Assembly (NCBI RefSeq): GCF_056746865.1
Contig: NZ_CM163382.1
Direction: 5' to 3' (one strand)
Length of the DNA stretch: 64,000 nt
Shown here one piece after another: positions 15,487-44,833 of this stretch (position 1 is the first letter of the stretch; every line of letters begins with the position of its first letter). Below the pieces are notes generated by a model. The model was given only the letters and a program-made list of their open reading frames with translations, was not told the origin of the DNA and did no database searches. The translations under genes were made by a program, and so were the position numbers.

Positions 15487-16133
15487 GCCTCTGCTCCGGG
15501 TTTGATCAGCATCAGACCACAGCCGAACGCGCGGCTTTTGCCATACCCCTGGCTCAGACGTTGCAGAAATAACCCGGGATCGGTGACCGTAAGCATCCCC
15601 GTATAATCCACGCTACTGAACTGGATCAGTTGCCGGGAGTTTTCCCGCCACAGTTGCTGTTGTCGGTAGGCATCAACCGAGGTATCCAGCAGTGTAAAAC
15701 CGCTTCTCTCCCCCTGCGCTGCCAGCCAGTCCAGCGCCGCCTGTTGTTGATGCAACCAGACATCACTTCCTTCCGCCTGCCCCCTCACCTGCCGTTTCGC
15801 CTCCATCAGCAGATCGTGGCGCTTGCCCGCTTTACAGATTGTTGGATTCGCCCGCAGGTTGAAACAAAGTTGTTGTCCGGTACGCAGCTCGGGCACAAAT
15901 GACCGGCATTCGATGGTGAACGTTTCACTTTCTGCCGGGCGTTCCTGCGACAGTACAAAAAAGCGAAACGCGCCCTGGAGTTCTTCCCGACGATAAAGAA
16001 ATTGCCTTTCTTTGCCGCCAGGGAAGAGATCCCACAGCCACTGATGCATCACATATTCCCCGCGATCCACCAGATGCAGCAACTGCGCAGGCGAAAGCTG
16101 GCCGGTATGTAAGGTTATTCTTGAGAGGTACAT
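15483..16133 (-). CDS. cas6e: Cas6e/CasE crRNA endoribonuclease (divergent I-E variant)
   Basis: Start at MYLSRITLHTGQ (ATG 16131-16133, GGAGG upstream); C-terminal ...GYGKSRAFGCGLMLIKP glycine-rich motif typical of Cas6e. Confidence 0.88.
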
Positions 16134-16810
16134 GGTTCCTCCTTGCTGAGCCACGGCCCCTGATTGACGGTGCGTTCCCCAAACAACCATTGCTGACGAT
16201 TTAAAGGAACATCCCGGCGGCGCAATATTTTGCTCGCGACCAGGCCGTCGTGCTCCCCTTCCCACCAGCATTCATCCTGAAGTTTCGGGAGTGCGATTTT
16301 CAGGTCGTGGAAATGCTCCTGATACTGGTGATATGCGTTACGTAAAACATCAGACGCGTTGCCTTCAAGCAGTAACGGCGCAAGTGGTAATGCCAGCGGA
16401 TGACTTTTTCGCCCCAGATAAAGCGGAAAAACTGGATGGCGTAAACCGCCCTGCAACTGTTCGAGGCTGTAAGGCGCATCGGCTGTTGTTGCCACCGCCA
16501 CCATCCACCAGGCGTCGGTGTAGTAGTCGCGCCGGGAGATAATCGCGCTCAGAAGATCAGGGTCGCTCAACTCTTCGCGACGGCTGAAATAACGCGCTTT
16601 ACGCACCTCTTTTGGCATCTGGATTGTGTGATAATCCCGTGCCCAGCGCGGGTTACGGCTGGCGCAAACCACCAGTGAATAGTGGCGGTTAAACACGTTT
16701 AATCGTTCGGTATCATCACGCCGAATCCCTACCCCGGCAGCCAGCAGCCCCAGCAATGCTGAGCGCGAAGGCAGTTCATGGGTATGACGCACTTCGCCCG
16801 CTCCAAACAA
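16115..16810 (-). pseudogene. cas5: cas5e/casD remnant lacking about 20-25 N-terminal codons; fused to island att core
   Basis: Cas5e-like body (...LPSRSALLGLLAAGVGIRRDD..., ...LYLGRKSHPLALPL...) but the frame opens with only a TTG 3 codons after a stop, and the first codons overlap the 15-bp att repeat. Confidence 0.8.
16792..16806. repeat. att core direct repeat (left copy), CTTCGCCCGCTCCAA
   Basis: Identical 15-mer recurs at 36704-36718; matches the acceptor-stem/CCA end of a tRNA. Confidence 0.6.
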
Positions 16811-16969: not shown

Positions 16970-18184
16970 ATGCTGCTTTCAGACCTTGCTATCAGGCGCG
17001 CGAAGCCGAAAGAAAAGGCTTATACACTCAATGACGGTAACGGGCTTTCGTTACTCATTGAGCCGAACGGCTCGAAAGGGTGGCGACTACGTTACAGATT
17101 TGCAGGAAAGCCCAAAATGTTGTCGTTGGGCGTGTACCCTGATGTGTCTCTGTCTGATGCCAGAGCGGCAAGGGATGAGGCTAAAAGGCTTCTTGCTGGT
17201 GGTATAAATCCAAGTGAGGCCAGAAAAGCTCAAAAGCGAGAACAGGCGAGCAAATTTGGCAATACTTTTGAGGGTATCGCTCGCGAATGGTATGAAAAGC
17301 GGATCGACAGGTGGTCATCGTCATACGCCGAGGAAATGATCGAGACGTTTGAAAAAGACGTTTTTCCGTACATTGGCGGCAGGCCGATCGCAGAAATTAA
17401 GCCAATGGAGTTGCTTGCGGTTCTCTCCCGTCTTAATGACCGTGGGGCGACCGAAAAATTGCGTAAGGTTCGCCAGCGATGCGGCGAGGTGTTCCGGTAC
17501 GCAATCATCACCGGACGCGCTGAATATAACCCCGCACCAGATCTGGCAAGCGCATTTGCTCCACACAAAAAAGAGCATTATGCCTATTTGAAGGCCGACG
17601 AACTGCCGGAATTTTTCCGCGTTCTTAATACGTACACCGGAAGCCAGATCGTCAAGCTGGGTATGCGATTATTGATTCTGACAGGGCTCCGGCCAGGGGA
17701 ATTACGACAGGCAGAATGGCAGGAGATCGATTTTGATAATCGTTTGTGGGAAGTGCCTAAAGAACGAATGAAGATGCGCCGTCCTCATTGTGTGCCGCTT
17801 TCAGAACAGGCGATCGCTATTCTGGAACAGTTAAAACACATGACGGGGCAGTATCAGTTTATTTTCCCTGGTCGAATCCAGCACAGTAAGCCGATGAGTG
17901 AAATGGCGATGAACGTGCTTATTCGTCGTATTGGCTATTCTGGGCGCGTTACTGGTCATGGGTTCCGGCACACGATGAGCACGATTTTACATGAGCAGGG
18001 CTATAACACCGCGTGGATAGAAACGCAGCTTGCACACGTTGATAAGAACTCAATTCGTGGCACGTACAATCATGCGCAATATCTGGACGGGCGGCGCGAG
18101 ATGCTCCAGTGGTACGCCGACTATATGGACTCACTGGAACAGGGCGGCAACGTGGTGCATGGCAAGTTCGGAAAATGTGGATGA
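16970..18184 (+). CDS. int: Tyrosine recombinase, P4-type integrase
   Basis: ORF 16931..18184; start taken at MLLSDLAIRRAKPKEKAYTLNDGNGLSLLIEPNGSKGWRLRY... (ATG 16970); C-terminal catalytic region with HGFRHT and Y. Confidence 0.93.
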   Translation: MLLSDLAIRRAKPKEKAYTLNDGNGLSLLIEPNGSKGWRLRYRFAGKPKMLSLGVYPDVSLSDARAARDEAKRLLAGGINPSEARKAQKREQASKFGNTFEGIAREWYEKRIDRWSSSYAEEMIETFEKDVFPYIGGRPIAEIKPMELLAVLSRLNDRGATEKLRKVRQRCGEVFRYAIITGRAEYNPAPDLASAFAPHKKEHYAYLKADELPEFFRVLNTYTGSQIVKLGMRLLILTGLRPGELRQAEWQEIDFDNRLWEVPKERMKMRRPHCVPLSEQAIAILEQLKHMTGQYQFIFPGRIQHSKPMSEMAMNVLIRRIGYSGRVTGHGFRHTMSTILHEQGYNTAWIETQLAHVDKNSIRGTYNHAQYLDGRREMLQWYADYMDSLEQGGNVVHGKFGKCG

Positions 18185-18312
18185 CTGGTTGAGTATACAG
18201 TAGTAGACTTTGAGCGACGAAAGAAAAAGCTGTGTCTAGGGTCGCTCCCGAAAAACCGTATACCTCGACGGGCTGGCACAGCCACTACAGTAGAGGACGC
18301 TGAGGTGTGCGT

Positions 18313-19110
18313 ATGATTGATATTCATGCCGAATTAAACGAATACAAAAAAGATTTTATTTCTTTACGTGAATTTCTTGAGGTCGTGCTTAAGGTCGCTG
18401 GTGATGATTATGATGTTTCAGATCTCATAACTTGGATACTCAGGAGAATAAGCGGAGAACATATCCGCCTGTACACAGTAAATGAATTTAAGCTGTTGGA
18501 ATCTTTTTGTAACCCGTATCGGGATGAATTTGATTATGATGTTCTTTATAGAAATCTGGATGCGGTTCGGAAACATGGTTGTTTACCTGGTGAGAGGGAT
18601 GAAAATGGTTTTCTGGTGTCCGGTTATTGGGAAGATCCCGAATTTGAGAACATTGGATTTATAAGGGGTGAAATTTTCGCAATTTTTCCCGATGTCCTTG
18701 ACGCGTTAACGAAGCTGGAAGGCGCTAACTCTTCTGAAAATGACGAGGTACAAGGACGCGATATTGAAAAGAAAGAGTTGCGTACAGAGGATGATTTATT
18801 ATCCCAAATCGCAATGCTGGAAAGAGAAAACGCAGAGTTAAGGGCAAGGATAGAGCAGTTAGAGCAAGAGCGCCCGATACACTTATATAAATACTGGGAT
18901 AAAGACCCATTAGCTAAGGCTATTGAGATTAGAAACAGAGAGTGGGCCAATTACGATCCAGAAAATGATTTTGCCACCAGGGGAAATCAAGAAGCGATAA
19001 CTAGGGAGCTTAAGCAGTGGGGGGCAAGTAATGCTCTTGCAACGCTCATAGAGAGGACTGCCTGCCCTATTAACCGAGACAACAGCCAAAAGAACGCAAA
19101 GCCGGATTAA
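18313..19110 (+). CDS. Hypothetical protein (265 aa) with acidic coiled-coil segment
   Basis: ORF 18307..19110; ATG 18313; coiled-coil-like stretch LLSQIAMLERENAELRARIEQLEQER; no family recognised by eye. Confidence 0.55.
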   Translation: MIDIHAELNEYKKDFISLREFLEVVLKVAGDDYDVSDLITWILRRISGEHIRLYTVNEFKLLESFCNPYRDEFDYDVLYRNLDAVRKHGCLPGERDENGFLVSGYWEDPEFENIGFIRGEIFAIFPDVLDALTKLEGANSSENDEVQGRDIEKKELRTEDDLLSQIAMLERENAELRARIEQLEQERPIHLYKYWDKDPLAKAIEIRNREWANYDPENDFATRGNQEAITRELKQWGASNALATLIERTACPINRDNSQKNAKPD

Positions 19111-19126
19111 CGCACCATACCGCATA

Positions 19127-19275
19127 CCCTGAGGGTGATTTACTGTTACCCTGAGGGTATTTTTTTATCTTCCCCGTCAATTTTACCATCACCCTTAGGG
19201 TAGATTTCCTCCCGATTACCATCACCCTTAGGGTTAATTTCCTTCCGGTAACCATTAGGCCTGAGGGTATGAAAA
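19127..19275. repeat. Five copies of an 11-bp near-palindromic motif ACCCT(G/T)AGGGT upstream of alpA
   Basis: taccctgagggtg, taccctgagggta, cacccttagggtag, cacccttagggtta, gcctgagggtatg within about 150 bp. Confidence 0.55.
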
Positions 19276-19337
19276 TATTCGTTATTTCTGTGCCATGATT
19301 ACCTCGTCAAATTGAGTAGACGTTATGAGGTAAATAG

Positions 19338-19535
19338 ATGTCAAATACGCTTATTCGTTTAACAGAAGTTCAGCGTAGAACTGGATATAGCAAGGCATGG
19401 ATTTATCGCCTTATGGGGCAAGGTAAATTTCCTGCATCAGTTAAAATTGGCTCGCGAGCGATTGCTTTCGTTGAAAGTGAAATTGACGAATGGATCAATC
19501 AGCGTATTGCCGAATCACGCGGAACGGCTGCCTGA
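19338..19535 (+). CDS. alpA: AlpA-family phage transcriptional regulator/excisionase
   Basis: 65 aa MSNTLIRLTEVQRRTGYSKAWIYRLMGQGKFPASVKIGSRAIAFVESEIDEWI, classic AlpA HTH. Confidence 0.85.
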   Translation: MSNTLIRLTEVQRRTGYSKAWIYRLMGQGKFPASVKIGSRAIAFVESEIDEWINQRIAESRGTAA

Positions 19536-19610
19536 TTAAATAGCTACGGGTTATTGCCCAAGCTATCCACTAGCAAATAAAAAGTAACTTAATTCGATAG
19601 CGGAGTTTTT

Positions 19611-20435
19611 ATGAAACTGCGAAAAACGCCCGTACAGGGGCAGGGCTTTGTTCGGCCTGAAAACCAGAATCTGCAAAATTTCGGCGAAATTATCCCGGTT
19701 ATTTCCGGCGTTATTGGCGGGCGTGAAGCCGCTGTTGTTAGCGCAAAAGCGTTACACAAAGCGTTGGGCGTGGGAAAAGACTTCTCTACATGGATCACTG
19801 ATCGTATCTCTGAATATGACTTCACCATTGGGTACGATTACTCAGTCCATAAAACAATTTCCCCAAATTTGGGGAAAAGCCCGAATGGCGAGGCTTACAG
19901 CAAGATTAAGCACTCTGGCAGACCCGGTAAAGACTATCTGTTAAGTGTCGGAATGGCGAAAGAACTGGCAATGATCGAACGCACCGAACAGGGCCGCGCC
20001 GTTCGTCAGTACTTCATCAAATGCGAGGAGGAGCTACACAAGGTAGCGCCTGTACGTTCCGCAGCGTTACGCCGGGAACTGAAAGCCCGTATCACCGTAG
20101 CCAGCTACTTTAAGCCAATGTGTGCCGCGCTGGAGGCGTACCGGGCTGAACTGGGTAAAAACACGCTCCAGCACCACTACACCACGGAAGCCAATATGCT
20201 GGCGCGTATCGTGCTGGGTGGCATGAATGCAAAACAGTGGGCGCAGGCGAACGGCATCACAGGCGAACCACGCGACCACATGAGCACGCTGCAGCTTGAG
20301 CACCTTTCTTACCTTGAGCAGAGCAATATCACGCTGATTGAGTTAGGCCAGGACTACCACCAGCGGAAAGCTGAATTAATTCGTCTTTCGCAACGCTGGT
20401 TAGCCCGCCGCATGGAGGTGAGCAGCCATGCGTAA
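19611..20435 (+). CDS. Phage antirepressor (AntA/KilAC-type)
   Basis: 274 aa; sequence resembles prophage antirepressor proteins; part of int-alpA-ant module. Confidence 0.65.
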   Translation: MKLRKTPVQGQGFVRPENQNLQNFGEIIPVISGVIGGREAAVVSAKALHKALGVGKDFSTWITDRISEYDFTIGYDYSVHKTISPNLGKSPNGEAYSKIKHSGRPGKDYLLSVGMAKELAMIERTEQGRAVRQYFIKCEEELHKVAPVRSAALRRELKARITVASYFKPMCAALEAYRAELGKNTLQHHYTTEANMLARIVLGGMNAKQWAQANGITGEPRDHMSTLQLEHLSYLEQSNITLIELGQDYHQRKAELIRLSQRWLARRMEVSSHA

Positions 20436-21153: not shown

Positions 21154-21351
21154 CTATTCCTGCTCTTTAGCATCGCCATACTGCGATGTTTTCCAGGTAT
21201 GCGATTCCATTTTTGTGCGCCTGTACTCTTTTAAGAACTTCTCAAGGACAAACGCACATGGCGCAAATCTTTCCTGTTCTTGTTCGCTTACCGCATTTTT
21301 GCGTTGTTTTTTCCTGGATGAGGATAATTTCTTTAATGATTTGTCAGTCAT
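21154..21351 (-). CDS. Small basic protein (65 aa), paralog-like partner of 21409..21606
   Basis: ORF on strand opposite to neighbours; both small ORFs end ...AKEQE and share a duplicated 3' DNA segment. Confidence 0.35.
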   Translation of the reverse strand: MTDKSLKKLSSSRKKQRKNAVSEQEQERFAPCAFVLEKFLKEYRRTKMESHTWKTSQYGDAKEQE

Positions 21352-21408: not shown

Positions 21409-21606
21409 TTACTCCTGCTCTTTGGCCTTCCGGCGCTGTTCATATTTTAATTTGCGTCCACAGGCATCTAAGACCCATGCGGAAAAATTAGCACTAGGAT
21501 TAGTTAATTTTTCTTGTTCAACACTGGCATCAATCCCATCTATAAGCTCGTGCGGGAATCGAATATTTTTCTTTGCTGATTTGTTGTTTGTGTTTCCGCT
21601 AGACAT
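21409..21606 (-). CDS. Small ribbon-helix-helix-like DNA-binding protein (65 aa)
   Basis: NIRFPHELIDGIDASVEQEK...FSAWVLDA resembles Arc/CopG RHH pattern. Confidence 0.4.
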   Translation of the reverse strand: MSSGNTNNKSAKKNIRFPHELIDGIDASVEQEKLTNPSANFSAWVLDACGRKLKYEQRRKAKEQE

Positions 21607-24692: not shown

Positions 24693-24715
24693 CTTCCCTG
24701 TGTGAGGTAAAAAGT

Positions 24716-24845
24716 TGCGGGTTATGCGGGTTATCCTGTGCATAAGTTAATTAACTGAATGATTAAAAAGGAAATTAATAACCCGCACGTAACCCGCAAA
24801 ACGGCAGTTATAACCCGCAAATGTGCGATTGTAACCCGCAAAATT
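24716..24845. repeat. Iteron cluster 1 (putative replication origin): convergent copies of TTGCGGGTTAT / ATAACCCGCAA
   Basis: gttgcgggttatgcgggttat then aataacccgcacgtaacccgcaaaacggcagttataacccgcaaatgtgcgattgtaacccgcaaa. Confidence 0.7.
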
Positions 24846-24902
24846 TCACTGTAAGAGTGTAAACAAGCGTAACTATCACGTTAAAACCGGAGAACAAACA
24901 GC

Positions 24903-25850: not shown

Positions 25851-27059
25851 ATGAAACGACTACAAGCTTTCAAATTCCAGTTAAGACCAAATGGAAAACA
25901 GGAGCGTGAAATGAGGCGCTTCGCGGGCGCATGTCGTTTCGTTTTCAATCGTGCTCTGGCGCTTCAGAATGAGAATCATGAGGCCGGGAACAAATATATT
26001 TCTTATGCAAAGATGACTTCCTGGCTGGTTGAATGGAAAAATGCTACTGAAACGCAATGGCTTAAAGATTCTCCCTCACAGCCATTGCAGCAGTCACTGA
26101 AAGACCTTGAGCGAGCCTACAAAAATTTCTTTCAGAAGCGTGCCGCTTTTCCCCGATTCAAAAAGCGGGGACAGCATGATGCATTCCGCTATCCGCAGGG
26201 TGTTAAGCTCGATCAGGAAAACAGCCGTATTTTTCTGCCGAAACTGGGCTGGATGCGCTACCGGAACAGCCGTCAGGTCACGGGTGTTGTGAAAAATGTC
26301 ACTGTCAGCCAGTCCTGCGGTAAGTGGTACATCAGTATTCAGACAGAAAGTGAAGTATCAACTCCGGTTCACCCTTCAGCATTAATGGTCGGGCTGGATG
26401 CTGGCGTGGCTAAACTCGCCACGCTGTCAGATGGCACGGTCTTTGAGCCTGTAAACAGTTTTCATAAAAACCAGAAGAAGCTGGCGAGACTTCAGCGCCA
26501 GTTAAGCCGCAAGGTTAAATTCAGCAACAACTGGCAGAAGCAGAAACGCAAAATACAGCGACTGCATTCCCGTATCGCAAATATCCGCAGGGACTACCTT
26601 CACAAAGTCACAACGACCATCAGCAAAAACCACGCAATGATAGTCATTGAGGATTTGAAGGTCAGCAACATGTCAAAGTCAGCCTCGGGTACGGTCAGCC
26701 AGCCGGGGCGCAATGTCCGGGCAAAATCAGGTTTAAACCGTTCGATACTGGATCAGGGCTGGTATGAAATGCGCCGTCAGCTTGAGTACAAGCAGCTCTG
26801 GTGTGGCGGTCAGGTGCTTGCTGTTCCGCCAGCGTACACAAGCCAGCGTTGCGCGTGCTGTGGTCATACAGCGAAAGAAAATCGCCTGTCACAAAGTCAA
26901 TTCAGATGCCAGGTATGTGGATATACAGCGAACGCCGATGTAAACGGCGCTCGTAACATTTTAGCGGCGGGGCACGCCGTTCTTGCCTGTGGAGGGATGG
27001 TGCAGTCAGGCCGCCCGTTGAAGCAGGAACCCACCGAAATGATTCAGGCGACAGCCTGA
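25851..27059 (+). CDS. tnpB: TnpB (OrfB) RNA-guided nuclease-like protein
   Basis: 402 aa; [17 protein letters not shown]...; C-terminal CxxC...CxxC zinc finger ([37 protein letters not shown]). Confidence 0.9.
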
Positions 27060-27692: not shown

Positions 27693-30224
27693 ATGCCAGT
27701 CGTACCAACAGTATCCGGACGTCAGGTTGAGAGCCGTGGAGTTCAGTCAGCAGGCTTGCAGACGTTTTCTCAGCCAGGTATTGGTGATGCTTTTGTTCGG
27801 GCAGGGGCAGAGGCAATTGATGTTTTTGGTCAGGCAAAACAGCGTGCCAATATTGCCTTGATTCAGGAGGCATCCCTTAAACTCAGTCAGATAGGCAGTG
27901 ATCTGCTGAATAATCCTGAAACAGGATTGCTTAACCTGAAAGGGAAAAATGCTATTGGAAAAGGCCATGAGTATACACAGCAGTTTGATGCTCAGATCGA
28001 ACAACTGGCTATGTCGCTGCCGGATGAACAGGCTCGTAATGCTTTCATGCAGCAGGCGCAGCAGCAGCGTATTCAGTTCGCTACGCAGGCCGGGAGGTAC
28101 GAGATAGGGCAAATAAATGCCTACGAAGAAGGCCAGTTTCAGGCGACACTGCTGAATAATGGTAAAAATGCCTCAGCATTATATGGCGACAACGCAGCAT
28201 ACATATTGGCTAATACGCAAACTTTCCAGCAAATTGAGGATTACGGTATTGCGCATGGCTGGAGCGACGAGCAAATCCAGGCCAAGAAAATCGAGTTTAA
28301 AGAAGCAACAGCAAAAGCAACTGCTCAAAATGCTATTGGAGCAAACTATCTTCAGGTAAGACAGCAAAATGGCGAGTTAAGCGATACTGCTGCTGGATCT
28401 CGCCGTGCTGTAGCAGATAGTGGCTCTTCCGATCGTACCCGCGGTATACGCAACAATAACCCCGGCAATCTTGAATACAGCAAAACTAATCCGTGGATTG
28501 GGCAGACTGGTGATGATGGTCGCTTTGCCAAATTCGAAACCCCTGAACACGGTATTCGCGCGCTTGGTCGCAATTTGCTGTCGTATCAGCGTCAGGGTTA
28601 TGACACCATCAGCGAAATAATTAATCGCTGGGCACCGGCCAGTGATGATAATAAAACTGATGCTTATATACGGGCAGTATGTGCTCAGCTCGGTGTAACT
28701 CCTGACCAGCCGCTTGACGCATCAAATCCTGACACACTGAAATCTCTGTGCAAAGCAATTATTCATCATGAGCAAGGCAGTCAGCCGTACAGTGATCAGC
28801 AATTGGCCGCTGGCGTTAGTGCCGCACTGGGGCTTTCTCAGCTACCGACAAAAAATAAACGTTATACCGGTGTAGCCTGGTTCGATGCTTTAAGTGAATC
28901 AGATCAGGCCAGCGTGTTGCGACAGACGGATGCATTAGCCAGACAGCAGCAGGCTGAATATAGAACGATGCTCGAAAGCCGGGTTCGCGATGCAACGGCT
29001 GCGTATATGCGTGGCGTTGAATTTCCTAACCCGCCTGGTGAGGGTGAGTTCATTGCTGCTTATGGTGTCAGAGAAGGAAACCTGCGATATACCGAGTTCA
29101 GAAATTTGCAGATCGCCGGACAGTATATAGGCTCTTTCCGCAACATGCCGACAAGCAGCATTACCGCATATGTTGAGCAATTACGCCCGGATACTGGTGA
29201 GACAGGGGAGGGGTATGCGTCTCGTGCGGAGTTATTCGACCGGGTATCGGCGGCAGCCACGAAGGTAATAACCCAGAGGCAGAATAATCCGTTTAGTGCA
29301 GCGGTGGAAATCGGAGCCTATAAGCCGATCACCAGCAACAACCCTGACGACATCACTGCCGAGGTGGCTAACCGTTTCTCGTCGCAGGAAAGCTTACGCG
29401 CGTTGGGAATTAATGCCCCACTCCTCAACAGTGAAGAGGCGGCTGCGCTGGCACAGCAGGTGCGCGGCACTCAGAACGTTGACCAGACAATTAAACTGTT
29501 GCAGAGCATGGGGGAGAAGCTGCCTGCGCCAGCAATACGGCAGGTGGCATCTGTAATTGCTCCGAACAGTGCGGCAACAGCCTATTCTGCGCTGCTGCTG
29601 GGCACGCCGGATAACCAGTACGACAACACCAGGCCGACGATCCCATATAGTCAGTTCATCGGGTATAAGCCGACGATGAACAAGTACGACGTTGCAAAGG
29701 TTATTCTTTCCGGCGACCAACTACTGAATCCGACGAAGGCCATGAAGAATGCGGGCATAACTCCGGTACAGTTGCCGAGCGAAGATAAGATGAAAGACGC
29801 TTTCGACGAACAGGTAGGTAATGCATTTGCCCGTAACCCGCAGTTACGCCAGATCAGTTATAGCCTTTTCAAAGCCGCTTACGCAGGAATAGCTTATCAA
29901 TCTGGTGATGCCTCTACGGTAAGAACCAGTATGCCTGATACAGACATTGTAGCTGATGCCGTGAAGTATGCTACTGGCGGTATATACAATGGTTTTAATG
30001 GCGGCGACGTTGTAATGCCTTTTGGCATGGATAAATCTACTTTCAAAGATCGCTATACCACATCTGCGAAACAAGCACTGAAAGATGCCGGACTTAACGT
30101 AAATGCAGTGTCAAATTTCACGCCAGTTAATATCGGCAATAACCGGTATCGGCTTGTAAATGGTAGCGGACGCTGGGCAACAGATCCCAGAACCAATAAA
30201 GCTATTGTCGTGAGGGTTGAATAA
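27693..30224 (+). CDS. Large hypothetical protein P1 (843 aa), Q/A-rich, conserved-looking block RNNNPGNLEY...
   Basis: Strong RBS AGGAGG before ATG 27693; stop overlaps next start (TAATG). Confidence 0.8.
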   Translation: MPVVPTVSGRQVESRGVQSAGLQTFSQPGIGDAFVRAGAEAIDVFGQAKQRANIALIQEASLKLSQIGSDLLNNPETGLLNLKGKNAIGKGHEYTQQFDAQIEQLAMSLPDEQARNAFMQQAQQQRIQFATQAGRYEIGQINAYEEGQFQATLLNNGKNASALYGDNAAYILANTQTFQQIEDYGIAHGWSDEQIQAKKIEFKEATAKATAQNAIGANYLQVRQQNGELSDTAAGSRRAVADSGSSDRTRGIRNNNPGNLEYSKTNPWIGQTGDDGRFAKFETPEHGIRALGRNLLSYQRQGYDTISEIINRWAPASDDNKTDAYIRAVCAQLGVTPDQPLDASNPDTLKSLCKAIIHHEQGSQPYSDQQLAAGVSAALGLSQLPTKNKRYTGVAWFDALSESDQASVLRQTDALARQQQAEYRTMLESRVRDATAAYMRGVEFPNPPGEGEFIAAYGVREGNLRYTEFRNLQIAGQYIGSFRNMPTSSITAYVEQLRPDTGETGEGYASRAELFDRVSAAATKVITQRQNNPFSAAVEIGAYKPITSNNPDDITAEVANRFSSQESLRALGINAPLLNSEEAAALAQQVRGTQNVDQTIKLLQSMGEKLPAPAIRQVASVIAPNSAATAYSALLLGTPDNQYDNTRPTIPYSQFIGYKPTMNKYDVAKVILSGDQLLNPTKAMKNAGITPVQLPSEDKMKDAFDEQVGNAFARNPQLRQISYSLFKAAYAGIAYQSGDASTVRTSMPDTDIVADAVKYATGGIYNGFNGGDVVMPFGMDKSTFKDRYTTSAKQALKDAGLNVNAVSNFTPVNIGNNRYRLVNGSGRWATDPRTNKAIVVRVE

Positions 30225-32284
30225 TGTCTGATGTTTTTTCTTTGGCTCCAGAAGGTCAGGCATGGATTGACGACAAAACAGTTGCCAACCCAGCAAGGCC
30301 AGAAGACTACGATCCGACTCCCTTCCAGGGTTCAGGTACTGCACTTTTGAGCGGCGTGGCGGAGGGGGCTCTCGGTCTCGCGCAGTCTGCCGTCGGATTC
30401 AGCAAGCGTCTGATTAGCGATCCGGCATTTACCGCAGACGTGGCACCGACAGTTAATATTTTTCGGGAGATGTTCCCTGATGCTGACAAAACACTGAATG
30501 ATACATACGACACGATCGGAAAACAGTTACAGGATGCCCGCAGCTATGTGAAGCCTGATGCAGGCAGCCAGGGAATGGCGGCTGAGGTATTAAATGAGCT
30601 TGGTAAATTTGTTCCTGCAATCGGAACAACTATGTTTGGTGGTCCGCTCATCGGCGCTGCTACAGCCTTCAGTTCTACGTATGAGCAGTCCTATCAGGAT
30701 TTTAAAGGGAAGGGAGTAGACGAGGCTACAGCGCGTAACCTGGCAACGCAGCAGAGCCTTTTCAATGCTGTGGGTATGGCCTTACCCGCTGCCGTCGGCA
30801 CCACACTGGCAACGCGCATTGCCTCAGGTGTGGCAATCAACACCGGATTCGGTGGACTGAACCGTTACTCAGTAGGCGCAACACTGGAGGAAAAAGGCTA
30901 CACGGAGATGGCAAAACAGTATCGGGTATTTGACGGTCAGGCGATGTTAGTCGATGCCGTTTTAGGCGGGGTCTTTGGTGGCGTTCATCACCTGACTACC
31001 CATAATAACCATGATGGTACAGAGTCGAACATTTCTGCAGAAGAAATAAAATCAACTTTTGGTGAACATTATCAGCAATCTCCTGATGGTAACATTGAGT
31101 CAATGGTTCGTGATTTATCTGATTCAGGAGTAATAGAACTTATTAATGAACCAGCAATAAAAAATAGTGATGGAGAAATACTTCTGAATAAAGGTCATGT
31201 GACAGTAGCTTCCGGAAAAGAACCAATAATAAGAATAAATATTAATGGATTAAAAGACCATGAAGAACTGTTAGAAACCCTTCATCACGAGGCGCTTCAT
31301 CTTGAGCAGCGCCATTACCCTGACTGGAAGGCCAGAAAGCTAGCTAATGCTGTACTTAAATCTGCAAACAAGCATTCTGACTATCCTGAATTTGCATATG
31401 GGATGTCACAATATTATGAATATAAGAAAAGGGGTGAGTACCCTGAAACATATCCTGAGTGGTTGTACGCTGAAGAAGTTGCCGCACATGCAGTAAATCC
31501 ATCTCTAAAGACAAGCGTTTCATCATGGGAAAAAATTATTTCAGGTTTTAAAGCCTATATATTCAGATACAGTGGTATTCAGGTTGGAACCGTTACACCT
31601 GAGCAGTTACGGTTACTCGTAAGTATGCGTCTTCGCAATATGAAACTGGAAGCCGCAGTAGAAAAAGTTTTTGGTATCCGGGCGAGGGAAAGAATAAAAC
31701 CAAGCGATATTGATGCAGCCCACATTTTGAATGAGGGGCTTCATTACGATATTGAATCGTCACCAGTGCTTCATACCAGCAATGAGAGCATCAACAGCCA
31801 TGTTGACGCCATGGATGAAGCATACAGGCAACTTAATGATGGTCAGCCTGTAAATGTTGGGGGGATGGCGCGAGGGCTTGATGGTCCATTGCGATCAGAT
31901 ATATCTGATACTTACCAAGAGCAATACCATGAAATACAAAAGGTTTTTGAAGAAAATGGTGTCAGATACGAAACATCATCAGAGCCAATTAGTGAATCGC
32001 CTGTCCCTCGTGCTGAAAGTGCTTTCTCATCGGCTGGTGAACACAGAGGGGACATCAGCGTTGATCCAGATACAGGGCAGGTTCTCTCATCCAACAGCTA
32101 TGACCTTATGGCTGCCAGGGACATGGCTGTTGCCAATCCTGAGCTGACTATAGCTCACCCGGAAACCGGAAACCCGACAAAACTTTCTGATCTCCTGGCT
32201 GAGTTGGATGAACAGATTAAGACAGTCCAGAACGAATCGAAGGTTTATTCTGTAGCAGCAGCGTGCTTCTTGAGGAACCCATAA
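30224..32284 (+). CDS. Large hypothetical protein P2 (686 aa) with glycine-rich hydrophobic segments and an HExxH motif
   Basis: HEALH at nt 31286-31300; N-terminal third has repeated Gly/Ala-rich hydrophobic stretches; TAATG coupling at both ends. Confidence 0.8.
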   Translation: MSDVFSLAPEGQAWIDDKTVANPARPEDYDPTPFQGSGTALLSGVAEGALGLAQSAVGFSKRLISDPAFTADVAPTVNIFREMFPDADKTLNDTYDTIGKQLQDARSYVKPDAGSQGMAAEVLNELGKFVPAIGTTMFGGPLIGAATAFSSTYEQSYQDFKGKGVDEATARNLATQQSLFNAVGMALPAAVGTTLATRIASGVAINTGFGGLNRYSVGATLEEKGYTEMAKQYRVFDGQAMLVDAVLGGVFGGVHHLTTHNNHDGTESNISAEEIKSTFGEHYQQSPDGNIESMVRDLSDSGVIELINEPAIKNSDGEILLNKGHVTVASGKEPIIRININGLKDHEELLETLHHEALHLEQRHYPDWKARKLANAVLKSANKHSDYPEFAYGMSQYYEYKKRGEYPETYPEWLYAEEVAAHAVNPSLKTSVSSWEKIISGFKAYIFRYSGIQVGTVTPEQLRLLVSMRLRNMKLEAAVEKVFGIRARERIKPSDIDAAHILNEGLHYDIESSPVLHTSNESINSHVDAMDEAYRQLNDGQPVNVGGMARGLDGPLRSDISDTYQEQYHEIQKVFEENGVRYETSSEPISESPVPRAESAFSSAGEHRGDISVDPDTGQVLSSNSYDLMAARDMAVANPELTIAHPETGNPTKLSDLLAELDEQIKTVQNESKVYSVAAACFLRNP

Positions 32285-35040
32285 TGAAACAGGCATGTGT
32301 GGAAGCTATTGCGCAGACACTTGGTCGCCAGCCAAAGGCTGATGAGCTGAAAAATATTGAAGATCGTATCAAAGAAGCTGTGCAGCATGTGCACAGAAAG
32401 AATGCCAAAGAAGGCAAAAGTGGTATTCCTGATGCTCAAACATACATGGATGCAGCAGAACTGGTACGCCAGCGTGTGGTTCATGATGTGTACAAGAAAA
32501 GACAGCGTGTTGCCCAGAATGCGATCGCCATCAGTAAAATTACTGACACTCTCGATGCTAACATCCCGCCTGATCAGCAGACACCTGTTAATTTGCAGCA
32601 GTTTATTTTTGCTGGCCGACGATCGAGAGACAAAGCTGATATCTCCGTTACTTCTGCTGAAGAACTTGCAATTGGGGCATATCAGGACTGGTCCCGTCAG
32701 CTCAGTGCTGAACTTCTAAAAGCAGGTGATGACGTCCGCAAATTCTTCGAGCAGAGCAGGGCGCTTGGAGAGCAGCGGTTTCGGAGTGTATTCGACAGGC
32801 AGGCGGCAAAGTCTGCACAACTCCAGATCCTGAAAGAAATATATGGCGAAGATACCGGGAATCCCCTGGCGAAGAAAATTGCACAGATTTGGAAGGATGT
32901 AACAGGCCGTGTTCGTCATGAGATGAACGACAATGGCTTTGACATAGGCCTGCGAGAAGACTGGCATACGCCATATGTGGATGATGCTGACCTTATTCGC
33001 AATGCCGGGCGCGAAGAATGGCTGGCATCGTTACCAGTGGCAGAGCAAGCTACAGCACGTCTTTCAGGTCGCCAGCCACCGATTGAGTTTGCCCGCCAGA
33101 AATGGGTTGATGACGCTTACAACACGCAGGATCGCAGCAATTACGTTAATCCTGACGGCAGCATTATGAATGACGTCGAGTACCGTCAGGCACTGGAAGC
33201 GATCTTTGAAACGAAGGCCACTGATGGGGCAAACAAAATTGAGCCTGGTACATTTATGGGAGCCGGAGGAATAAAGAGCCGTGGTTCTCAGCACAGGGTG
33301 ATGGCGTTCAAGGATGCGCAGTCACACTTCGCCTATATGGAACGATACACTCAGCAGCCGCTGGTGGGGGTGATGATGTCGCACCTGCAATCATCATCCA
33401 GGGATTTGGGCGTCGTTAAAGCCTTTGGTCCGGACGCCGAAAGAAACTTTTCCCTGGTACTGGATCGCATCTATAAGCGCGCAGTAACAGGCGGGAAACG
33501 CAAAAAAGAAATGGAGGATGAGGCCAAATTAGTTGCCCGTATGTTCAACTCAATGGCTGGCCTAAATGGTGTCGCTTCATCGAGTGTGTTCTCTTCAGCA
33601 GTTGGTGGTCTGCGTAACCTGATGACCAGCGCCATGCTTGGCACCAGCGTACTGACAGCAACCAGCGACCAGGCAATTATGCGGGCAAATGCGCAGGCGC
33701 TGGGCTTTACCCGTGGTGGAATGCGGCTTTCCGTTAACACTATCAAAAACCTGTTTAGTGGAGATGCCAAAAAGGCGAATGCTGAACTCGGTCTGCTGGT
33801 GGATTCACATGCTGCTGTGGTTTCGAAAATGGGCGGGTTTGACTTGTCTCGCGGCATAACTGGCTGGTTCGCAGAGAAGACACTGAAGTGGTCCGGGCTG
33901 ATCGCTATGGACCGCGCAAACAAAGCGTCGTTTGGTCTCCTGATGTACAAAAACATTGGCGAGCTGACCAGAAAATTTAAGACGCTGGACGATATGAAAG
34001 GAACCGATAAAACCATTCTGGCTAACAAGGGATGGAGCAATGAGGACTGGGCCATCATGGCAGCGGCAGAACTCAGGCCGATGACTACTGCCGGGCATAT
34101 GGGGATGACGCCAGACGCGATTTACGCTGTGCCCGATAACGTAATAGCCGACATTATGGCAGACCGTATTACCCGGATTCGTGCCGGGAGTGAAAAGGCA
34201 CTGGCAGCCCTTGGAGATCTCCCTCCAGAACGCCTGAAACGGATGAAAGAAGCATTCGACGCTGAGGCTGAGCAGACCATCACGCGCATGATTCGTAATG
34301 CACGCGCTGAAGCAGCCCAGAAATTGCTGGGAATTACGCACGGTGAGATGACCAATGCTGTGACCACCGCTACGGGTATTGATACATATGCCCGTGATGA
34401 TGCTGGCGAGTTAATGAAGAGCTTCATGCTCTTCAAAACAACCCCATTTGCTGGATTTCGGCAACTTGTTAACAGAACACGGGATTTGGACACCGTTCCG
34501 GCCATTAAATTTCTGGCCTCATATATCGGGGGAACAACTCTTGCTGGTATGTTTGCGATCCAGATGAACAGTTTGTTAAATGGTAATGATCCGCTGGATA
34601 TGACAAAACCAACCACATGGGTTCAGGCTTTACTGAAAGGTGGTTCGTTCGGTATCTACGGTGATTTTATTTTCCAGGACCATACGCAATATGGCTCCAG
34701 CATCGGTGCCACTATGGGTGGCCCTGTGTTGAGCTTTGCAGAGCAGTTAACAAAATTACTGATTACTAACCCACAGAAGGCTCTACAGGGTGAAGAAACA
34801 TCATTCGGTGCCGATGCACTGAAAACAGCCCGCATGATCACCCCATTCGCAAACCTGTGGTATGCGAAAGCGATAACCAATCACCTGATATTGCAACAAC
34901 TTCAGGAGATGGCAAACCCTGGTTACAATGATCGAGTAAGGGACCGCGCGCAACGGGAGTTCGACATAACGAGTTGGTGGGAACCGGGTGCTATTGCGCC
35001 ACGTAGAGCACCGGATTTTGGAAAGGCGGTGGGGAACTGA
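32284..35040 (+). CDS. Large hypothetical protein P3 (918 aa)
   Basis: ORF 32263..35040; start taken at MKQACVEAIAQ (ATG 32284 overlapping P2 stop); Gly-rich hydrophobic segments toward C-terminus. Confidence 0.8.
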   Translation: MKQACVEAIAQTLGRQPKADELKNIEDRIKEAVQHVHRKNAKEGKSGIPDAQTYMDAAELVRQRVVHDVYKKRQRVAQNAIAISKITDTLDANIPPDQQTPVNLQQFIFAGRRSRDKADISVTSAEELAIGAYQDWSRQLSAELLKAGDDVRKFFEQSRALGEQRFRSVFDRQAAKSAQLQILKEIYGEDTGNPLAKKIAQIWKDVTGRVRHEMNDNGFDIGLREDWHTPYVDDADLIRNAGREEWLASLPVAEQATARLSGRQPPIEFARQKWVDDAYNTQDRSNYVNPDGSIMNDVEYRQALEAIFETKATDGANKIEPGTFMGAGGIKSRGSQHRVMAFKDAQSHFAYMERYTQQPLVGVMMSHLQSSSRDLGVVKAFGPDAERNFSLVLDRIYKRAVTGGKRKKEMEDEAKLVARMFNSMAGLNGVASSSVFSSAVGGLRNLMTSAMLGTSVLTATSDQAIMRANAQALGFTRGGMRLSVNTIKNLFSGDAKKANAELGLLVDSHAAVVSKMGGFDLSRGITGWFAEKTLKWSGLIAMDRANKASFGLLMYKNIGELTRKFKTLDDMKGTDKTILANKGWSNEDWAIMAAAELRPMTTAGHMGMTPDAIYAVPDNVIADIMADRITRIRAGSEKALAALGDLPPERLKRMKEAFDAEAEQTITRMIRNARAEAAQKLLGITHGEMTNAVTTATGIDTYARDDAGELMKSFMLFKTTPFAGFRQLVNRTRDLDTVPAIKFLASYIGGTTLAGMFAIQMNSLLNGNDPLDMTKPTTWVQALLKGGSFGIYGDFIFQDHTQYGSSIGATMGGPVLSFAEQLTKLLITNPQKALQGEETSFGADALKTARMITPFANLWYAKAITNHLILQQLQEMANPGYNDRVRDRAQREFDITSWWEPGAIAPRRAPDFGKAVGN

Positions 35041-36699: not shown

Positions 36700-36717
36700 T
36701 TCCCTTCGCCCGCTCCA
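36700..36717. repeat. tRNA 3'-end remnant / right att repeat (TTCCCTTCGCCCGCTCCA)
   Basis: 18 nt consistent with T-arm/acceptor stem/CCA of tRNA-Gly (glyU-like) as I recall it; contains the 15-bp repeat shared with 16792-16806. No complete tRNA in the window. Confidence 0.55.
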
Positions 36718-36949
36718 ATTTATCTTCACCTCATCAACCTGCCATTTTTGTTGTATCTGATTTTCTATATTATCTTAATTCAATCGCTTCAGACTTTTCG
36801 CAATCGCCGTAATACTTCCCCATTTTTTTGTAAATAAAAGCGTTTACGCAATGCAATCCATTTGTAACAACCCAGGTAAAATACCTTATTTTCAAGTTGT
36901 TAAATAAGTGGTTATCTACGCTTTTAACAAACGATTGATGGAATCTTTT

Positions 36950-38221
36950 ATGAAAGGGAAATCTACATTAACTCTTCTGCTCGCTGGTATATTTTCATGC
37001 TGCACATGCCAGGCGACAGGGGCAGAAGTGACGAGTGAATCTGTATTTAACATTCTTAATTCCACGGGGGCAGCAACTGATAAAAGTTATTTATCGTTAA
37101 ATCCAGATAAGTATCCTAATTATCGTCTTCTGATTCACTCAGCCAAATTAAAAAATGAAATAAAGAGCCACTATACCAAAGACGAAATTCAAGGATTGTT
37201 AACATTAACAGAAAATACACGAAAGTTAACGTTGACGGAGAAACCATGGGGAACATTTATTCTTGCTTCTACTTTCGAAGATGACAAAACAGCGGCAGAA
37301 ACCCACTATGATGCTGTCTGGCTGAGGGATAGTTTATGGGGCTATATGGCATTAGTATCAGATCAGGAAAATAGTGTAGCCGCAAAAAAGGTTCTGCTCA
37401 CTCTGTGGGATTATATGTCTACGCCAGACCAGATTAAACGGATGCAGGACGTCATTAGCAACCCAAAACGACTGGATGGTATTCCTGGGCAAATGAATGC
37501 TGTGCATATCCGATTTGACAGCAACTCCCCCGTGATGGCAGATGTGCAGGAAGAAGGCAAGCCGCAGCTGTGGAACCATAAACAAAATGATGCGTTAGGT
37601 CTTTATCTTGATCTCCTTATACAAGCAATCGACACTGGTACTATTAACGCTGAAGATTGGCAAAAAGGTGACCGATTAAAATCGGTTGCGCTGCTGATTG
37701 CTTATCTGGATAAAGCCAATTTCTATGTTATGGAAGATTCCGGAGCGTGGGAAGAAGATGCCAGATTAAACACATCTTCCGTTGCACTGGTGACCTCTGG
37801 ACTGGAACGTTTGTCGAACTTACTCTCGAAGAAAGACTCTGTTTTTGTCTCTGATTTACTACGCGAAGCTAAAGCTAATGAACTGGATGAACCACTTTCA
37901 ACAACGAGGTTGAACCACCTCATAGATAAAGGTTATGAAAGAATAACGTTACAGCTTGATTTAGGGGGAGAATCCCCAGGTTATCTGGAAAAAGATAAAC
38001 ATTACAGAGAAGCCGATGCGGCTTTACTTAATGTTATTTATCCTGCAAATCTTTCAAAGATAAATACCAGAAGAAAAGAGCAAGTTCTAAAAATAGTTAA
38101 AAAACTAGCAGGTCCGTATGGTATAAAAAGATACGAGAAGGATAATTATCAGTCGGCAAATTTTGGTTCAATGATATTAAAACCGATACCGATCAAAATT
38201 CACATGCAAAAAGAGAAATGA
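36950..38221 (+). CDS. Putative secreted protein/lipoprotein (423 aa) at the ETT2 island edge
   Basis: ORF 36908..38221; start taken at MKGKSTLTLLLAGIFSCCTCQA (signal peptide, possible lipobox). Confidence 0.55.
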   Translation: MKGKSTLTLLLAGIFSCCTCQATGAEVTSESVFNILNSTGAATDKSYLSLNPDKYPNYRLLIHSAKLKNEIKSHYTKDEIQGLLTLTENTRKLTLTEKPWGTFILASTFEDDKTAAETHYDAVWLRDSLWGYMALVSDQENSVAAKKVLLTLWDYMSTPDQIKRMQDVISNPKRLDGIPGQMNAVHIRFDSNSPVMADVQEEGKPQLWNHKQNDALGLYLDLLIQAIDTGTINAEDWQKGDRLKSVALLIAYLDKANFYVMEDSGAWEEDARLNTSSVALVTSGLERLSNLLSKKDSVFVSDLLREAKANELDEPLSTTRLNHLIDKGYERITLQLDLGGESPGYLEKDKHYREADAALLNVIYPANLSKINTRRKEQVLKIVKKLAGPYGIKRYEKDNYQSANFGSMILKPIPIKIHMQKEK

Positions 38222-38559: not shown

Positions 38560-38567
38560 TTTTCATA

Positions 38568-41599: not shown

Positions 41600-41603
41600 T
41601 GAA

Positions 41604-44802: not shown

Positions 44803-44833
44803 GATAATGTCTTGCGATATGGAGCATGCTGGT

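What the first reader, a model, noticed from the sequence alone, without database searches (positions are those of the whole stretch)
19127..19275. Array of five ACCCT(G/T)AGGGT near-palindromes upstream of alpA
Five 11-13 bp copies in 150 bp between the coiled-coil gene and alpA. The dyad symmetry and spacing suggest cooperative binding sites for a dimeric regulator (AlpA, integrase arm-type sites, or a helper-phage protein).
Basis: seen in the sequence. Interest (0 to 1): 0.42.

Follow-up and report, generated by a model that had tools for sequence, protein, structure and literature searches.

The report
Regulator binding-site array upstream of alpA
A real, conserved row of short DNA palindromes sits in front of the master-switch gene (alpA) of a phage-satellite-like island. 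It most likely serves as the docking array for the unannotated coiled-coil protein encoded just upstream, not for AlpA or the integrase.

Summary
There are four exact ACCCT(G/T)AGGGT dyads (19126, 19148, 19191, 19224) and a fifth, atypical 'split' element (19251-19268), found nowhere else in the 64 kb; no shuffle reached this count. The dyads sit whole helical turns apart and in a fixed register to the alpA start codon. They are conserved in islands whose spacer sequence has diverged completely.

The motif does not follow the AlpA allele, the integrase or AntA. Islands with a 95%-identical AlpA and a 100%-identical integrase arm domain lack it. It follows the roughly 70-aa C-terminal domain of the upstream 'coiled-coil' gene (gene X). 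That domain belongs to a rare, unannotated family (143 clusters among 1.84 billion representative proteins). Natural domain swaps support this: the same N-domain joined to a different C-domain has different repeats, and different N-domains joined to the same C-domain have the same repeats.

Best reading: an operator array for gene X that controls the alpA promoter. Whether it represses or activates is unresolved; I lean towards repression or insulation. Binding is inferred and has not been shown. The two experimentally studied E. coli PICIs lack gene X.

The parts
16793..16805 (+). attL core TTCGCCCGCTCCA of the island. It is identical to the 3' end of tRNA-Gly at the island's usual site, but here it abuts a truncated cas5e.
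16970..18184 (+). P4-type tyrosine integrase (Arm-DNA-bind_3, Phage_int_M and Phage_integrase domains).
18229..18296 (+). Rfam int-alpA RNA motif (RF02996), immediately 5' of gene X.
   Evidence: 46.9 bits against a gathering score of 35.8
18313..19110 (+). Gene X, 265 aa, annotated as hypothetical. It has a variable N-domain (aa 1-141), a coiled coil (aa 159-186) and a conserved four-helix C-terminal domain (aa ~186-255, nt ~18868-19077).
19126..19136 (.). Dyad site 1, ACCCTGAGGGT (centre -207 from the alpA ATG).
19148..19158 (.). Dyad site 2, ACCCTGAGGGT (centre -185), followed by a run of seven T.
19191..19201 (.). Dyad site 3, ACCCTTAGGGT (centre -142), in the first copy of the 33-bp tandem unit.
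19224..19234 (.). Dyad site 4, ACCCTTAGGGT (centre -109). This position is invariant at -108 +/- 1 in all related islands.
19251..19267 (.). Promoter-proximal element P, CCATTAGGCCTGAGGGT (centre about -75). It is a hybrid of the two forms seen in relatives, CCATTAGGCCTAATGG and CCCTCATGCCTGAGGG.
19291..19299 (+). Putative extended -10 (TGcCATGAT) of the alpA promoter. I inferred it by eye from conservation; the promoter scan tool did not call it.
   Evidence: inference
19299..19333 (+). Hairpin in the alpA leader that pairs the Shine-Dalgarno sequence (TTACCTCGT / ATGAGGTAA). Relatives carry different, compensating stems.
19338..19535 (+). alpA (65 aa, Phage_AlpA PF05930). It is the master activator in characterised Gram-negative PICIs.
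24707..24852 (.). Iteron cluster TAACCCGCAAA (direct copies at a 21-bp period plus inverted copies) after the DUF927 primase gene. This is the probable origin of replication. It is listed as context, because it makes an origin role for the alpA-upstream array unlikely.
36705..36717 (+). attR core TTCGCCCGCTCCA, the right end of the ~19.9-kb island.

Best explanation
The array is the operator of the protein encoded immediately upstream (gene X, 18313-19110).

X has a variable N-terminal domain, a ~28-residue coiled coil that should make it a dimer, and a conserved ~70-aa four-helix C-terminal domain. I propose that one dimer binds each ACCCTnAGGGT dyad through the C-terminal domains. Because the dyads lie whole helical turns apart and on one face of the DNA, bound dimers could contact one another. 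They would form one nucleoprotein complex running from X's stop codon to the split dyad P, which lies over the -35 region of the weak, extended -10 alpA promoter.

In the quiescent island I expect this complex to keep alpA, the island's master activator, silent. It would do so by occluding the promoter and blocking read-through from int and X. A helper-phage signal acting on the variable N-domain would release it.

Shown here:
- the motif, its phasing and its fixed register to alpA;
- its conservation in diverged islands;
- its strict co-occurrence with the C-terminal domain of X, independent of AlpA, Int, AntA and the X N-domain.

Inferred:
- that X binds the sites (about 0.75);
- that the effect is repression rather than activation (about 0.55, given binding);
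- the promoter position;
- the helper input.
For: 1. The motif is real and confined to this spot: 0 of 100 shuffles reach it, and there is no other copy in the window.

2. In 38 related loci there are 126 matches (one mismatch allowed) in the 250 bp after the X-family stop codon, against 1 match in the other 218 kb. The spacers between sites are not conserved.

3. Position weight matrix from 61 distinct sites: the ACCCT / AGGGT arms are invariant and the central base is free.

4. Phasing: 46 spacings from 16 divergent loci give R = 0.82 at a period of 10.5-10.9 bp; 0 of 20,000 random sets match this. Site centres are fixed at -75, -108, -151, -174 and -206 from the alpA ATG.

5. Two-by-two design: the same Int (100% identical arm domain) and a 95% identical AlpA occur without the motif (L003). 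A 65%-identical Int occurs with it (L002).

6. AlpA-anchored survey of islands with AlpA at least 75% identical: a strong C-domain hit goes with the motif in 30 of 31 distinct loci; with no or only a weak C-domain hit, the motif is present in 0 of 34.

7. Natural domain swaps. L098 shares its N-domain with L113 and L123 but has the class-I C-domain and ACCCTnAGGGT sites. L113, L117, L123, L131, L132 and L143 share a different C-domain and have A(C/T)TTCCA repeats. L003-type islands have a distant C-domain relative and GGTGGGCAC-type repeats.

8. Reverse test: the exact two-site pattern occurs in 25 stretches of 2.9 million viral contigs, and 21 of them are next to an X-family gene.

9. The swapped cassette runs from 18216 to 19316, so X, the array and the promoter travel together.

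11. A separate iteron cluster sits at the canonical origin position.
Against: - No binding data exist.
- Gene and array are physically adjacent, so part of the co-occurrence is linkage. Many loci are related, so the counts are not independent events.
- The four strong dyads lie upstream of about -60 from the inferred start site. That layout suits an activator as well as a repressor.
- The start site is not mapped, and the promoter scan called nothing.
- X is co-directional with alpA, unlike the divergent Stl/str layout of SaPIs.
- The two experimentally studied E. coli PICIs (EcCICFT073, EcCIMP1) have no gene X, yet they are helper-inducible (PMC6092414, PMC11773190). X is therefore not a general requirement.
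- Half-site centres only 6 bp apart are unusual for HTH dimers.
Confidence: 0.42

Rival explanations
1. Same binder, opposite sign. X is a helper-sensing activator. Once activated or synthesised on helper infection, it binds the phased dyads, fills the split dyad P at about -43, and recruits RNA polymerase to a promoter that has no -35 element. AlpA then amplifies its own expression.
For: This reading shares all the co-variation evidence. In addition:
- the strong sites are all upstream of the core promoter and on one face, with P at a class-II-like position (inferred start site);
- the core promoter looks weak;
- a structured RNA motif lies directly 5' of X and could gate its synthesis;
- alpA is known to be switched on by helper phages (PMC6092414, PMC11773190).
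Against: - Four to six sites spanning 130-170 bp is more than most activators use.
- The first site starts 5-15 bp after X's stop codon, which suits a roadblock.
- The start site is not mapped.
- PICIs without X are still helper-induced.
Confidence: 0.3
2. The dyads are bound by a host or helper-phage factor, not by X. X and the array are simply inherited together as neighbours.
For: Binding by X is not demonstrated. Helper phages are known to induce alpA by an unknown route (PMC6092414). Adjacency alone produces co-occurrence.
Against: - Three different C-domain classes each come with their own repeat type, while the N-domain, AlpA, Int and host species stay the same.
- The motif is conserved although the spacers have diverged.
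- There is no other copy in 64 kb of host DNA.
- Nothing similar is found in 50,697 phage records.
Confidence: 0.1
3. AlpA's own sites, used for auto-activation or as a recombination directionality factor.
For: AlpA activates its own promoter in EcCICFT073 and EcCIMP1 (PMC6092414, PMC11773190). The array is directly upstream of alpA.
Against: - Islands with 95-98% identical AlpA lack the motif entirely; this holds for 0 of 34 loci in the survey.
- L042 and L044 have a different 88-aa AlpA-like protein yet keep near-consensus dyads.
- The array is 2.3 kb from the att core.
Confidence: 0.05
4. Replication-origin iterons or a centromere-like partition site.
For: The array is phased and varies in copy number (3 to 5 copies among near-identical islands). 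A T-rich stretch follows site 2.
Against: - A typical iteron cluster lies at the canonical position after the primase gene (24707-24852).
- There is no partition NTPase gene nearby.
- The array is locked in register to the alpA start codon.
Confidence: 0.04
5. Integrase arm-type sites.
For: The integrase has an Arm-DNA-bind_3 domain.
Against: - The array is 2.3 kb from attL and 17 kb from attR.
- An identical arm domain occurs without the motif, and a 58%-identical arm domain occurs with it.
Confidence: 0.02

Closest known systems
Stl/Rpr master repressor with its operators in SaPIs and Gram-positive PICIs
   Same: Both have an island-encoded regulator next to int and next to the promoter that starts the island's lytic programme. 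Both have modular proteins: a conserved DNA-binding part joined to a highly variable part, which in Stl binds helper proteins. Both show many specificity types.
   Different: There is no sequence or clear fold relationship. The DNA-binding part is C-terminal here and N-terminal in Stl. The gene is co-directional with its target rather than divergent. Repression and helper-protein binding are untested here.
AlpA-controlled switch of Gram-negative PICIs (EcCICFT073, EcCIMP1)
   Same: The island backbone is the same: int, alpA, Bro zone, YlcI, Icd-like, DUF4222, primase plus ori, ssb, PerC. alpA is the first gene of the rightward operon.
   Different: The studied PICIs have no gene between int and alpA and none of these dyads. 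This island family carries an extra regulator-plus-operator cassette.
Heteroimmune repressor/operator cassettes of lambdoid phages (CI with OR/OL), and phased multi-site operators such as 186 CI or Fis at rrnB P1
   Same: Several dyads are bound cooperatively, with helical phasing. The cassette (regulator, sites and promoter) swaps as one unit between otherwise near-identical elements.
   Different: The dyad is very compact (5-bp arms and one free central base). The protein has no recognisable HTH signature. The sites lie downstream of the regulator's own gene.
P4 PLL/vis control region
   Same: An AlpA homologue (Vis) is the first gene of a helper-activated promoter. Relatives of this island carry P4-type isrK/C4 immunity RNAs.
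   Different: P4 PLL uses a TGT-N12-ACA dyad for the Ogr/Delta activators (from my own knowledge). Nothing like that is present here, and this island has no C4 or isrK RNA.

Membership tests
Integrase arm-type sites of a tyrosine-recombinase attP | They lie within a few hundred bp of the crossover core. | tested here: not met
   The array is at 19126-19267 and the cores are at 16793-16805 and 36705-36717. The int gene and gene X lie in between.
Integrase arm-type sites of a tyrosine-recombinase attP | They co-vary with the integrase arm-binding domain. | tested here: not met
   L003 has an arm domain 100% identical to the window's but no motif. L002 has an arm domain 58% identical and does have the motif.
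AlpA / Vis / excisionase binding sites | Their presence follows the AlpA allele. | tested here: not met
   AlpA at 95-98% identity occurs with and without the motif. In the AlpA-anchored survey, 0 of 34 loci without a strong X C-domain have the motif.
AlpA / Vis / excisionase binding sites | AlpA binds the DNA directly. | not testable with these tools
   This needs EMSA or footprinting.
Satellite master-repressor/operator module (Stl-like) | The regulator gene is adjacent to its sites and to the promoter of the induction operon. | tested here: met
   X's stop codon is at 19110, the first dyad at 19126 and the alpA ATG at 19338. The same layout is seen in more than 35 distinct loci.
Satellite master-repressor/operator module (Stl-like) | The regulator has a sequence-specific DNA-binding domain. 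| tested here: inconclusive
Satellite master-repressor/operator module (Stl-like) | An operator overlaps the core promoter, so binding represses. | tested here: inconclusive
   Only element P (centre about -75 from the ATG) would overlap the -35 region of the inferred promoter. The start site is not mapped, and the scan tool found no sigma-70 site.
Satellite master-repressor/operator module (Stl-like) | The repressor is inactivated by a helper-phage protein. | not testable with these tools
   This needs genetics or an interaction assay.
Replication-origin iterons of PICIs | They are located next to the pri/rep gene. | tested here: not met
   A distinct iteron cluster lies at 24707-24852, right after the DUF927 primase gene. 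The alpA-upstream array is 3.3 kb upstream of that gene.
Intrinsic terminator or structured RNA | There is a stable stem-loop, and compensatory changes keep the pairing. | tested here: not met
   The arms are 5 bp with a single central base, so at best a 4-5 bp stem forms. The arms never vary, so there is no covariation to read. Only site 2 is followed by a T run, and that is not conserved. There is no Rfam hit.
Gram-negative PICI (the island as a whole) | It has int, alpA, a primase with adjacent ori, unidirectional genes and flanking att repeats. | tested here: met
Gram-negative PICI (the island as a whole) | It is induced and packaged by a helper phage, and carries capsid or packaging genes. 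| not tested
   I noted no capsid or terminase gene. The region after ssb holds an IS605-family tnpB and three large proteins with no Pfam match. Mobilisation cannot be tested here.
Rfam int-alpA RNA (RF02996) | The covariance-model score is above the gathering threshold. | tested here: met
   46.9 bits against 35.8, at 18229-18296.

The most novel reading that the evidence does not exclude
Gene X and its relatives are a hitherto unrecognised family of modular master regulators of AlpA-type phage satellites in Enterobacterales and Pasteurellaceae. Each has a swappable C-terminal DNA-binding domain with a cognate operator array in front of alpA, a coiled coil, and a fast-evolving N-terminal domain that senses a helper-phage protein. 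On this reading they are the functional counterpart of Stl, which has been missing for Gram-negative satellites. The several cassette classes (ACCCTnAGGGT, AYTTCCA, GGTGGGCAC, TACCGCAATTGCGG and others) would then be 'immunity types' that decide which helper induces which island.
Probability: 0.3. Interest if true: 0.75.

Novelty: new variant of a known kind. Interest (0 to 1): 0.55.

Why it matters
How Gram-negative PICI-type satellites stay silent and sense their helper phage is an open question. [quoted passage not shown]

This array, and the unannotated protein domain it travels with, give a concrete and cheap experiment for a large subfamily of such islands. The subfamily is present in 161 of 5,426 complete E. 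coli genomes, O104:H4 strains among them. The experiment needs one protein, about 200 bp of DNA and one promoter fusion.

The natural domain swaps also offer several ready-made DNA-binding-domain/operator pairs with no known fold assignment.

If the array turns out to be only a local operator with no helper input, it is still an ordinary, well-behaved regulatory site.

Tried and rejected
- Sigma-70 promoter scan of 18200-19700 found nothing. The promoter position is therefore only my reading of conserved TGn-plus-hexamer motifs.
- Pfam, PHROGs, NCBIfam and PDB sequence searches for gene X and for its C-domain found nothing meaningful.
- tblastn of the C-domain against the phage and plasmid collections, and blastn of the array against phages, gave no match.
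- A literature search for the motif strings returned only unrelated papers. No paper I found describes a gene between int and alpA as a regulator.
- RNAalifold on the alpA leaders failed because MAFFT misaligned the divergent stems. I replaced it with per-sequence folding.
- Folding the whole intergenic region as RNA gives z = -3.5. This only reflects the palindromes pairing with one another, so I do not take it as evidence for an RNA.
- An origin role was rejected because of the separate iteron cluster.
- BRO-N and AntA were rejected as binders. L002 has the motif but no BRO-N gene, and L003 lacks the motif although large parts of its antA match the window's at 91-96% nucleotide identity.

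Full report
**1. The observation**

The window is E. coli chromosome. It runs cysDNC, iap, a CRISPR array, cas2, cas1, cas6e and a truncated cas5e. A ~19.9-kb integrative island follows, bounded by the 13-bp direct repeat TTCGCCCGCTCCA at 16793-16805 and 36705-36717.

The island encodes a P4-type integrase (16970-18184), a 265-aa hypothetical protein with a central coiled coil (18313-19110, 'gene X' below) and alpA (19338-19535). After alpA come AntA and BRO-N proteins, two small YlcI-like genes, Icd-like and DUF4222 genes, a DUF927 primase-helicase and ssb. This is the backbone of Gram-negative PICIs such as EcCICFT073.

Between X and alpA there are four exact ACCCT(G/T)AGGGT dyads, at 19126, 19148, 19191 and 19224. 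With one mismatch allowed there are 8 strand-matches, against 0.85 expected. No shuffle out of 100 reaches that, and there is no other copy in the 64 kb. The last two dyads sit in a 33-bp tandem unit.

It belongs to a different, promoter-proximal element (19251-19267).

**2. Conservation**

The same island occurs in 161 of 5,426 complete E. coli genomes, normally at tRNA-Gly or tRNA-Thr.

Using an alignment of X homologues I fetched 65 loci from IMG/VR. In 38 of them I scanned for the motif, allowing one mismatch. It occurs 126 times in the 250 bp following the X-family stop codon and once in the remaining 218 kb. This includes loci where only the C-terminal ~70 residues of X can be aligned (35-50% identity).

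The spacers between sites are not conserved. In 61 distinct sites the two 5-bp arms are essentially invariant and the central base is free.

Neighbour spacings fall at 22-24, 31-34, 41-44 and 54-56 bp. For 46 spacings from 16 divergent loci the resultant length is 0.82 at a period of 10.5-10.9 bp, and 0 of 20,000 random sets match this. Site centres are locked to the alpA start codon at about -75, -108, -151, -174 and -206; the window has -75, -109, -142, -185 and -207.

Near-identical islands carry 3, 4 or 5 canonical dyads through gain or loss of the 33-bp unit, which preserves phase.

**3. What the motif travels with**

- AlpA: the L003 and L004 AlpA is 95% identical to the window's, yet L003 and L004 have no dyad anywhere.
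- Integrase: the L003 integrase is 97% identical, with a 100% identical arm domain, and L003 has no motif. The L002 integrase is 65% identical (58% in the arm domain), and L002 has the motif.
- AntA and BRO-N: large parts of antA are 91-96% identical at the nucleotide level between the window and L003. L002 has the motif but no BRO-N gene.

I ran an AlpA-anchored survey of 80 loci with AlpA at least 75% identical. A strong hit to the X C-terminal domain (E < 1e-29) goes with the motif in 30 of 31 distinct loci. Loci with no hit or only a weak hit have it in 0 of 34.

As a reverse test, I searched for two exact dyads 21-24 bp apart. This pattern occurs in only 25 stretches of 2.9 million viral contigs, and 21 of them lie directly after an X-family gene.

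Homology between the window and L003 stops at 18215 and resumes at 19317. So X, the array and the alpA promoter form one exchangeable cassette.

**4. Natural domain swaps**

Islands of this AlpA clade almost always carry some gene in the int-alpA slot, and each type has its own repeats in the same place:

- A(C/T)TTCCA direct repeats (L113, L117, L123, L131, L132, L143, L145);
- TACCGCAATTGCGG (L099);
- TTTGCATGCAG (L102);
- TGGAATATTCCA (L139);
- GGTGGGCAC-type repeats (L003, L101, L119, L121, L140).

All-against-all BLASTP shows modular proteins. L098 shares its N-domain with L113 and L123 (35% identity over 137 aa with L113, E = 6e-21). It has the class-I C-domain, though, and it has ACCCTnAGGGT sites. 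L113, L117, L123, L131, L132 and L143 share another C-domain (40-45% identity over ~80 aa) on varied N-domains and share the TTCCA repeats. L003-type proteins carry a distant relative of the class-I C-domain (P0099, E = 5e-9) and a third repeat type.

The repeat type therefore follows the C-terminal domain. It does not follow the N-domain, AlpA or Int.

**5. The protein**

X has no Pfam, PHROG, NCBIfam or PDB sequence match. AlphaFold2 (pLDDT 77) gives an alpha/beta N-domain, a 28-residue helix (residues 159-186) and a four-helix C-domain. The C-domain modelled on its own has pLDDT 76.

The C-domain family is rare. It has 143 clusters among 1.84 billion representatives, and it is always at the C-terminus of proteins of 30-515 aa. 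It is found in Enterobacterales, Pasteurellaceae and Gilliamella, and every member is annotated as hypothetical. It is absent from the phage and plasmid collections.

**6. Mechanism**

Best explanation: the array is X's operator.

A coiled-coil dimer would bind each dyad through the C-domains. Same-face spacing would allow cooperative assembly from X's stop codon down to element P. In relatives, P is a split dyad (CCCT-N8-AGGGT, or CCATTA-N4-TAATGG). It is centred about 43 bp upstream of the start site I infer from a conserved TGn-plus-hexamer (19291-19299).

In characterised PICIs alpA is the auto-activating master switch and is turned on by helper phages through an unknown route. The existence of a repressor there is described as unclear (PMC6092414, PMC11773190).

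I lean towards X holding the alpA promoter off and shielding it from int/X read-through, with the variable N-domain as the input. The upstream position of the strong sites and the weak core promoter fit an activator almost as well.

My probabilities:
- X binds the array: about 0.75.
- Repression, given binding: about 0.55.

Caveat: EcCICFT073 and EcCIMP1 have no gene X. This is therefore an additional control layer of a subfamily, not a general PICI feature.

**7. Rivals**

- AlpA sites and integrase arm sites are contradicted by the presence/absence tests above.
- An origin role is unlikely, because canonical iterons (TAACCCGCAAA) lie after the primase gene at 24707-24852.
- RNA hairpins or terminators are implausible: the arms are 5 bp with a single central base, the arms show no covariation, and there is no Rfam hit.
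- A host or helper factor cannot be excluded, but it does not explain why repeat type changes with the C-domain class.

**8. Comparison and novelty**

In function, this resembles a repressor/operator 'immunity' cassette, like Stl in SaPIs or the heteroimmune CI/operator modules of lambdoid phages.

It is not a member of those families by sequence or fold. The layout also differs: the DNA-binding domain is C-terminal, the gene is co-directional with its target, and the sites lie downstream of the regulator's own gene.

I found no description of this gene family or motif in the searchable literature. I rate it a new variant of a known kind, of moderate-to-good interest. It is well supported as a conserved cis-element with an identified candidate binder. 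It has not been tested biochemically.

Noticed in passing
window 16793-16805, 36705-36717, and flanks 16115-16810 and 36718-45000: The island's left junction is not a tRNA. The 13-bp core that elsewhere is the 3' end of tRNA-Gly abuts a 5'-truncated cas5e, and the cas-side homology ends at 16798. The right junction is the normal tRNA-Gly neighbour, the ETT2 type III secretion genes. This looks like a rearrangement (probably an inversion) between attL and a secondary site inside cas5e, splitting the type I-E cas operon. No complete E. coli genome in the collection has this exact junction; ETEC1747 has something similar.
   Followed up: partly
window 18229-18296 (+); also L002, L005, L042, L099, L102, L113, L119, L132: The Rfam int-alpA RNA (RF02996) ends at or within about 20 nt of the start codon of the gene in the int-alpA slot in most of these loci, whatever class that gene belongs to (in L113 it overlaps the start I called, in L102 it lies inside the ORF I called, and in L132 a 124-aa ORF intervenes). 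Its consensus is a GC-rich closing stem followed by a U run and then AgGG. It looks like a terminator or leader of that gene rather than a free sRNA.
   Followed up: partly
window 19299-19333; leaders of alpA in L003, L099, L105, L114, L115, L149 and others: A hairpin immediately before the alpA ATG pairs the Shine-Dalgarno sequence. Related islands keep the pairing with quite different stems (CTCGTAA/TTACGAG, CACCTT/AAGGTG, GCTCCTGTAG/CTACAGGAGC, TCTCCCGT/ACGGGAGA), while the loop AATAGACGTTA is often conserved. This suggests translational control of AlpA, or a binding site in the loop.
   Followed up: partly
window 24707-24852: An iteron cluster TAACCCGCAAA (three or four direct copies at a 21-bp period plus inverted copies) lies between the DUF927 primase-helicase gene and ssb. 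This is the probable island origin of replication.
   Followed up: partly
L099, L102, L113, L117, L123, L129, L132, L139, L143, L145 and others (regions upstream of alpA): Other islands with the same AlpA family carry other unannotated genes (230-380 aa; two are DUF6387) in the int-alpA slot. Each has its own repeat array at the same position. N- and C-domains are shuffled among these proteins.
   Followed up: partly
L002 6223-6408; L042, L099, L113, L119, L129, L067: Related islands carry P4-type immunity RNA elements (isrK, C4 antisense RNA and c4-a1b1 targets), about 1.3-2.3 kb downstream of alpA in the loci where I placed alpA. The window's island has none at Rfam gathering scores across 13000-37500.
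   Followed up: yes
window 25851-27059 and 27693-35040: An IS200/IS605-family tnpB (OrfB_IS605 plus a Cas12f-like TNB domain) sits inside the island. It is followed by three large co-directional ORFs (843, 686 and 925 aa) with no Pfam match. This may be a cargo or defence module.
   Followed up: no
window 21154-21351 and 21409-21606 (- strand): Two 65-aa genes lie on the opposite strand; their C-termini end alike (KAKEQE/DAKEQE) and short DNA repeats link the two loci, so they may be paralogues. One matches DUF3950 (YlcI/YnfO). By eye their sequence pattern looks ribbon-helix-helix-like, so they are possible small regulators of the Bro zone.
   Followed up: no
L009/L080, L023/L087, L079 compared with window 19183-19255: Near-identical E. 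coli islands differ in the number of 33-bp units, giving 3, 4 or 5 canonical dyads. The variation always keeps helical phase and the -108 register.
   Followed up: yes
L051-L070 (probably Pasteurellaceae), first 80 bp after the X-family stop codon: The most distant C-domain group lacks compact dyads. It has CCCT-N8-AGGGT (the same split form as element P) and GGGTGATAG / CTATCACCC inverted repeats. This suggests an alternative binding geometry.
   Followed up: no
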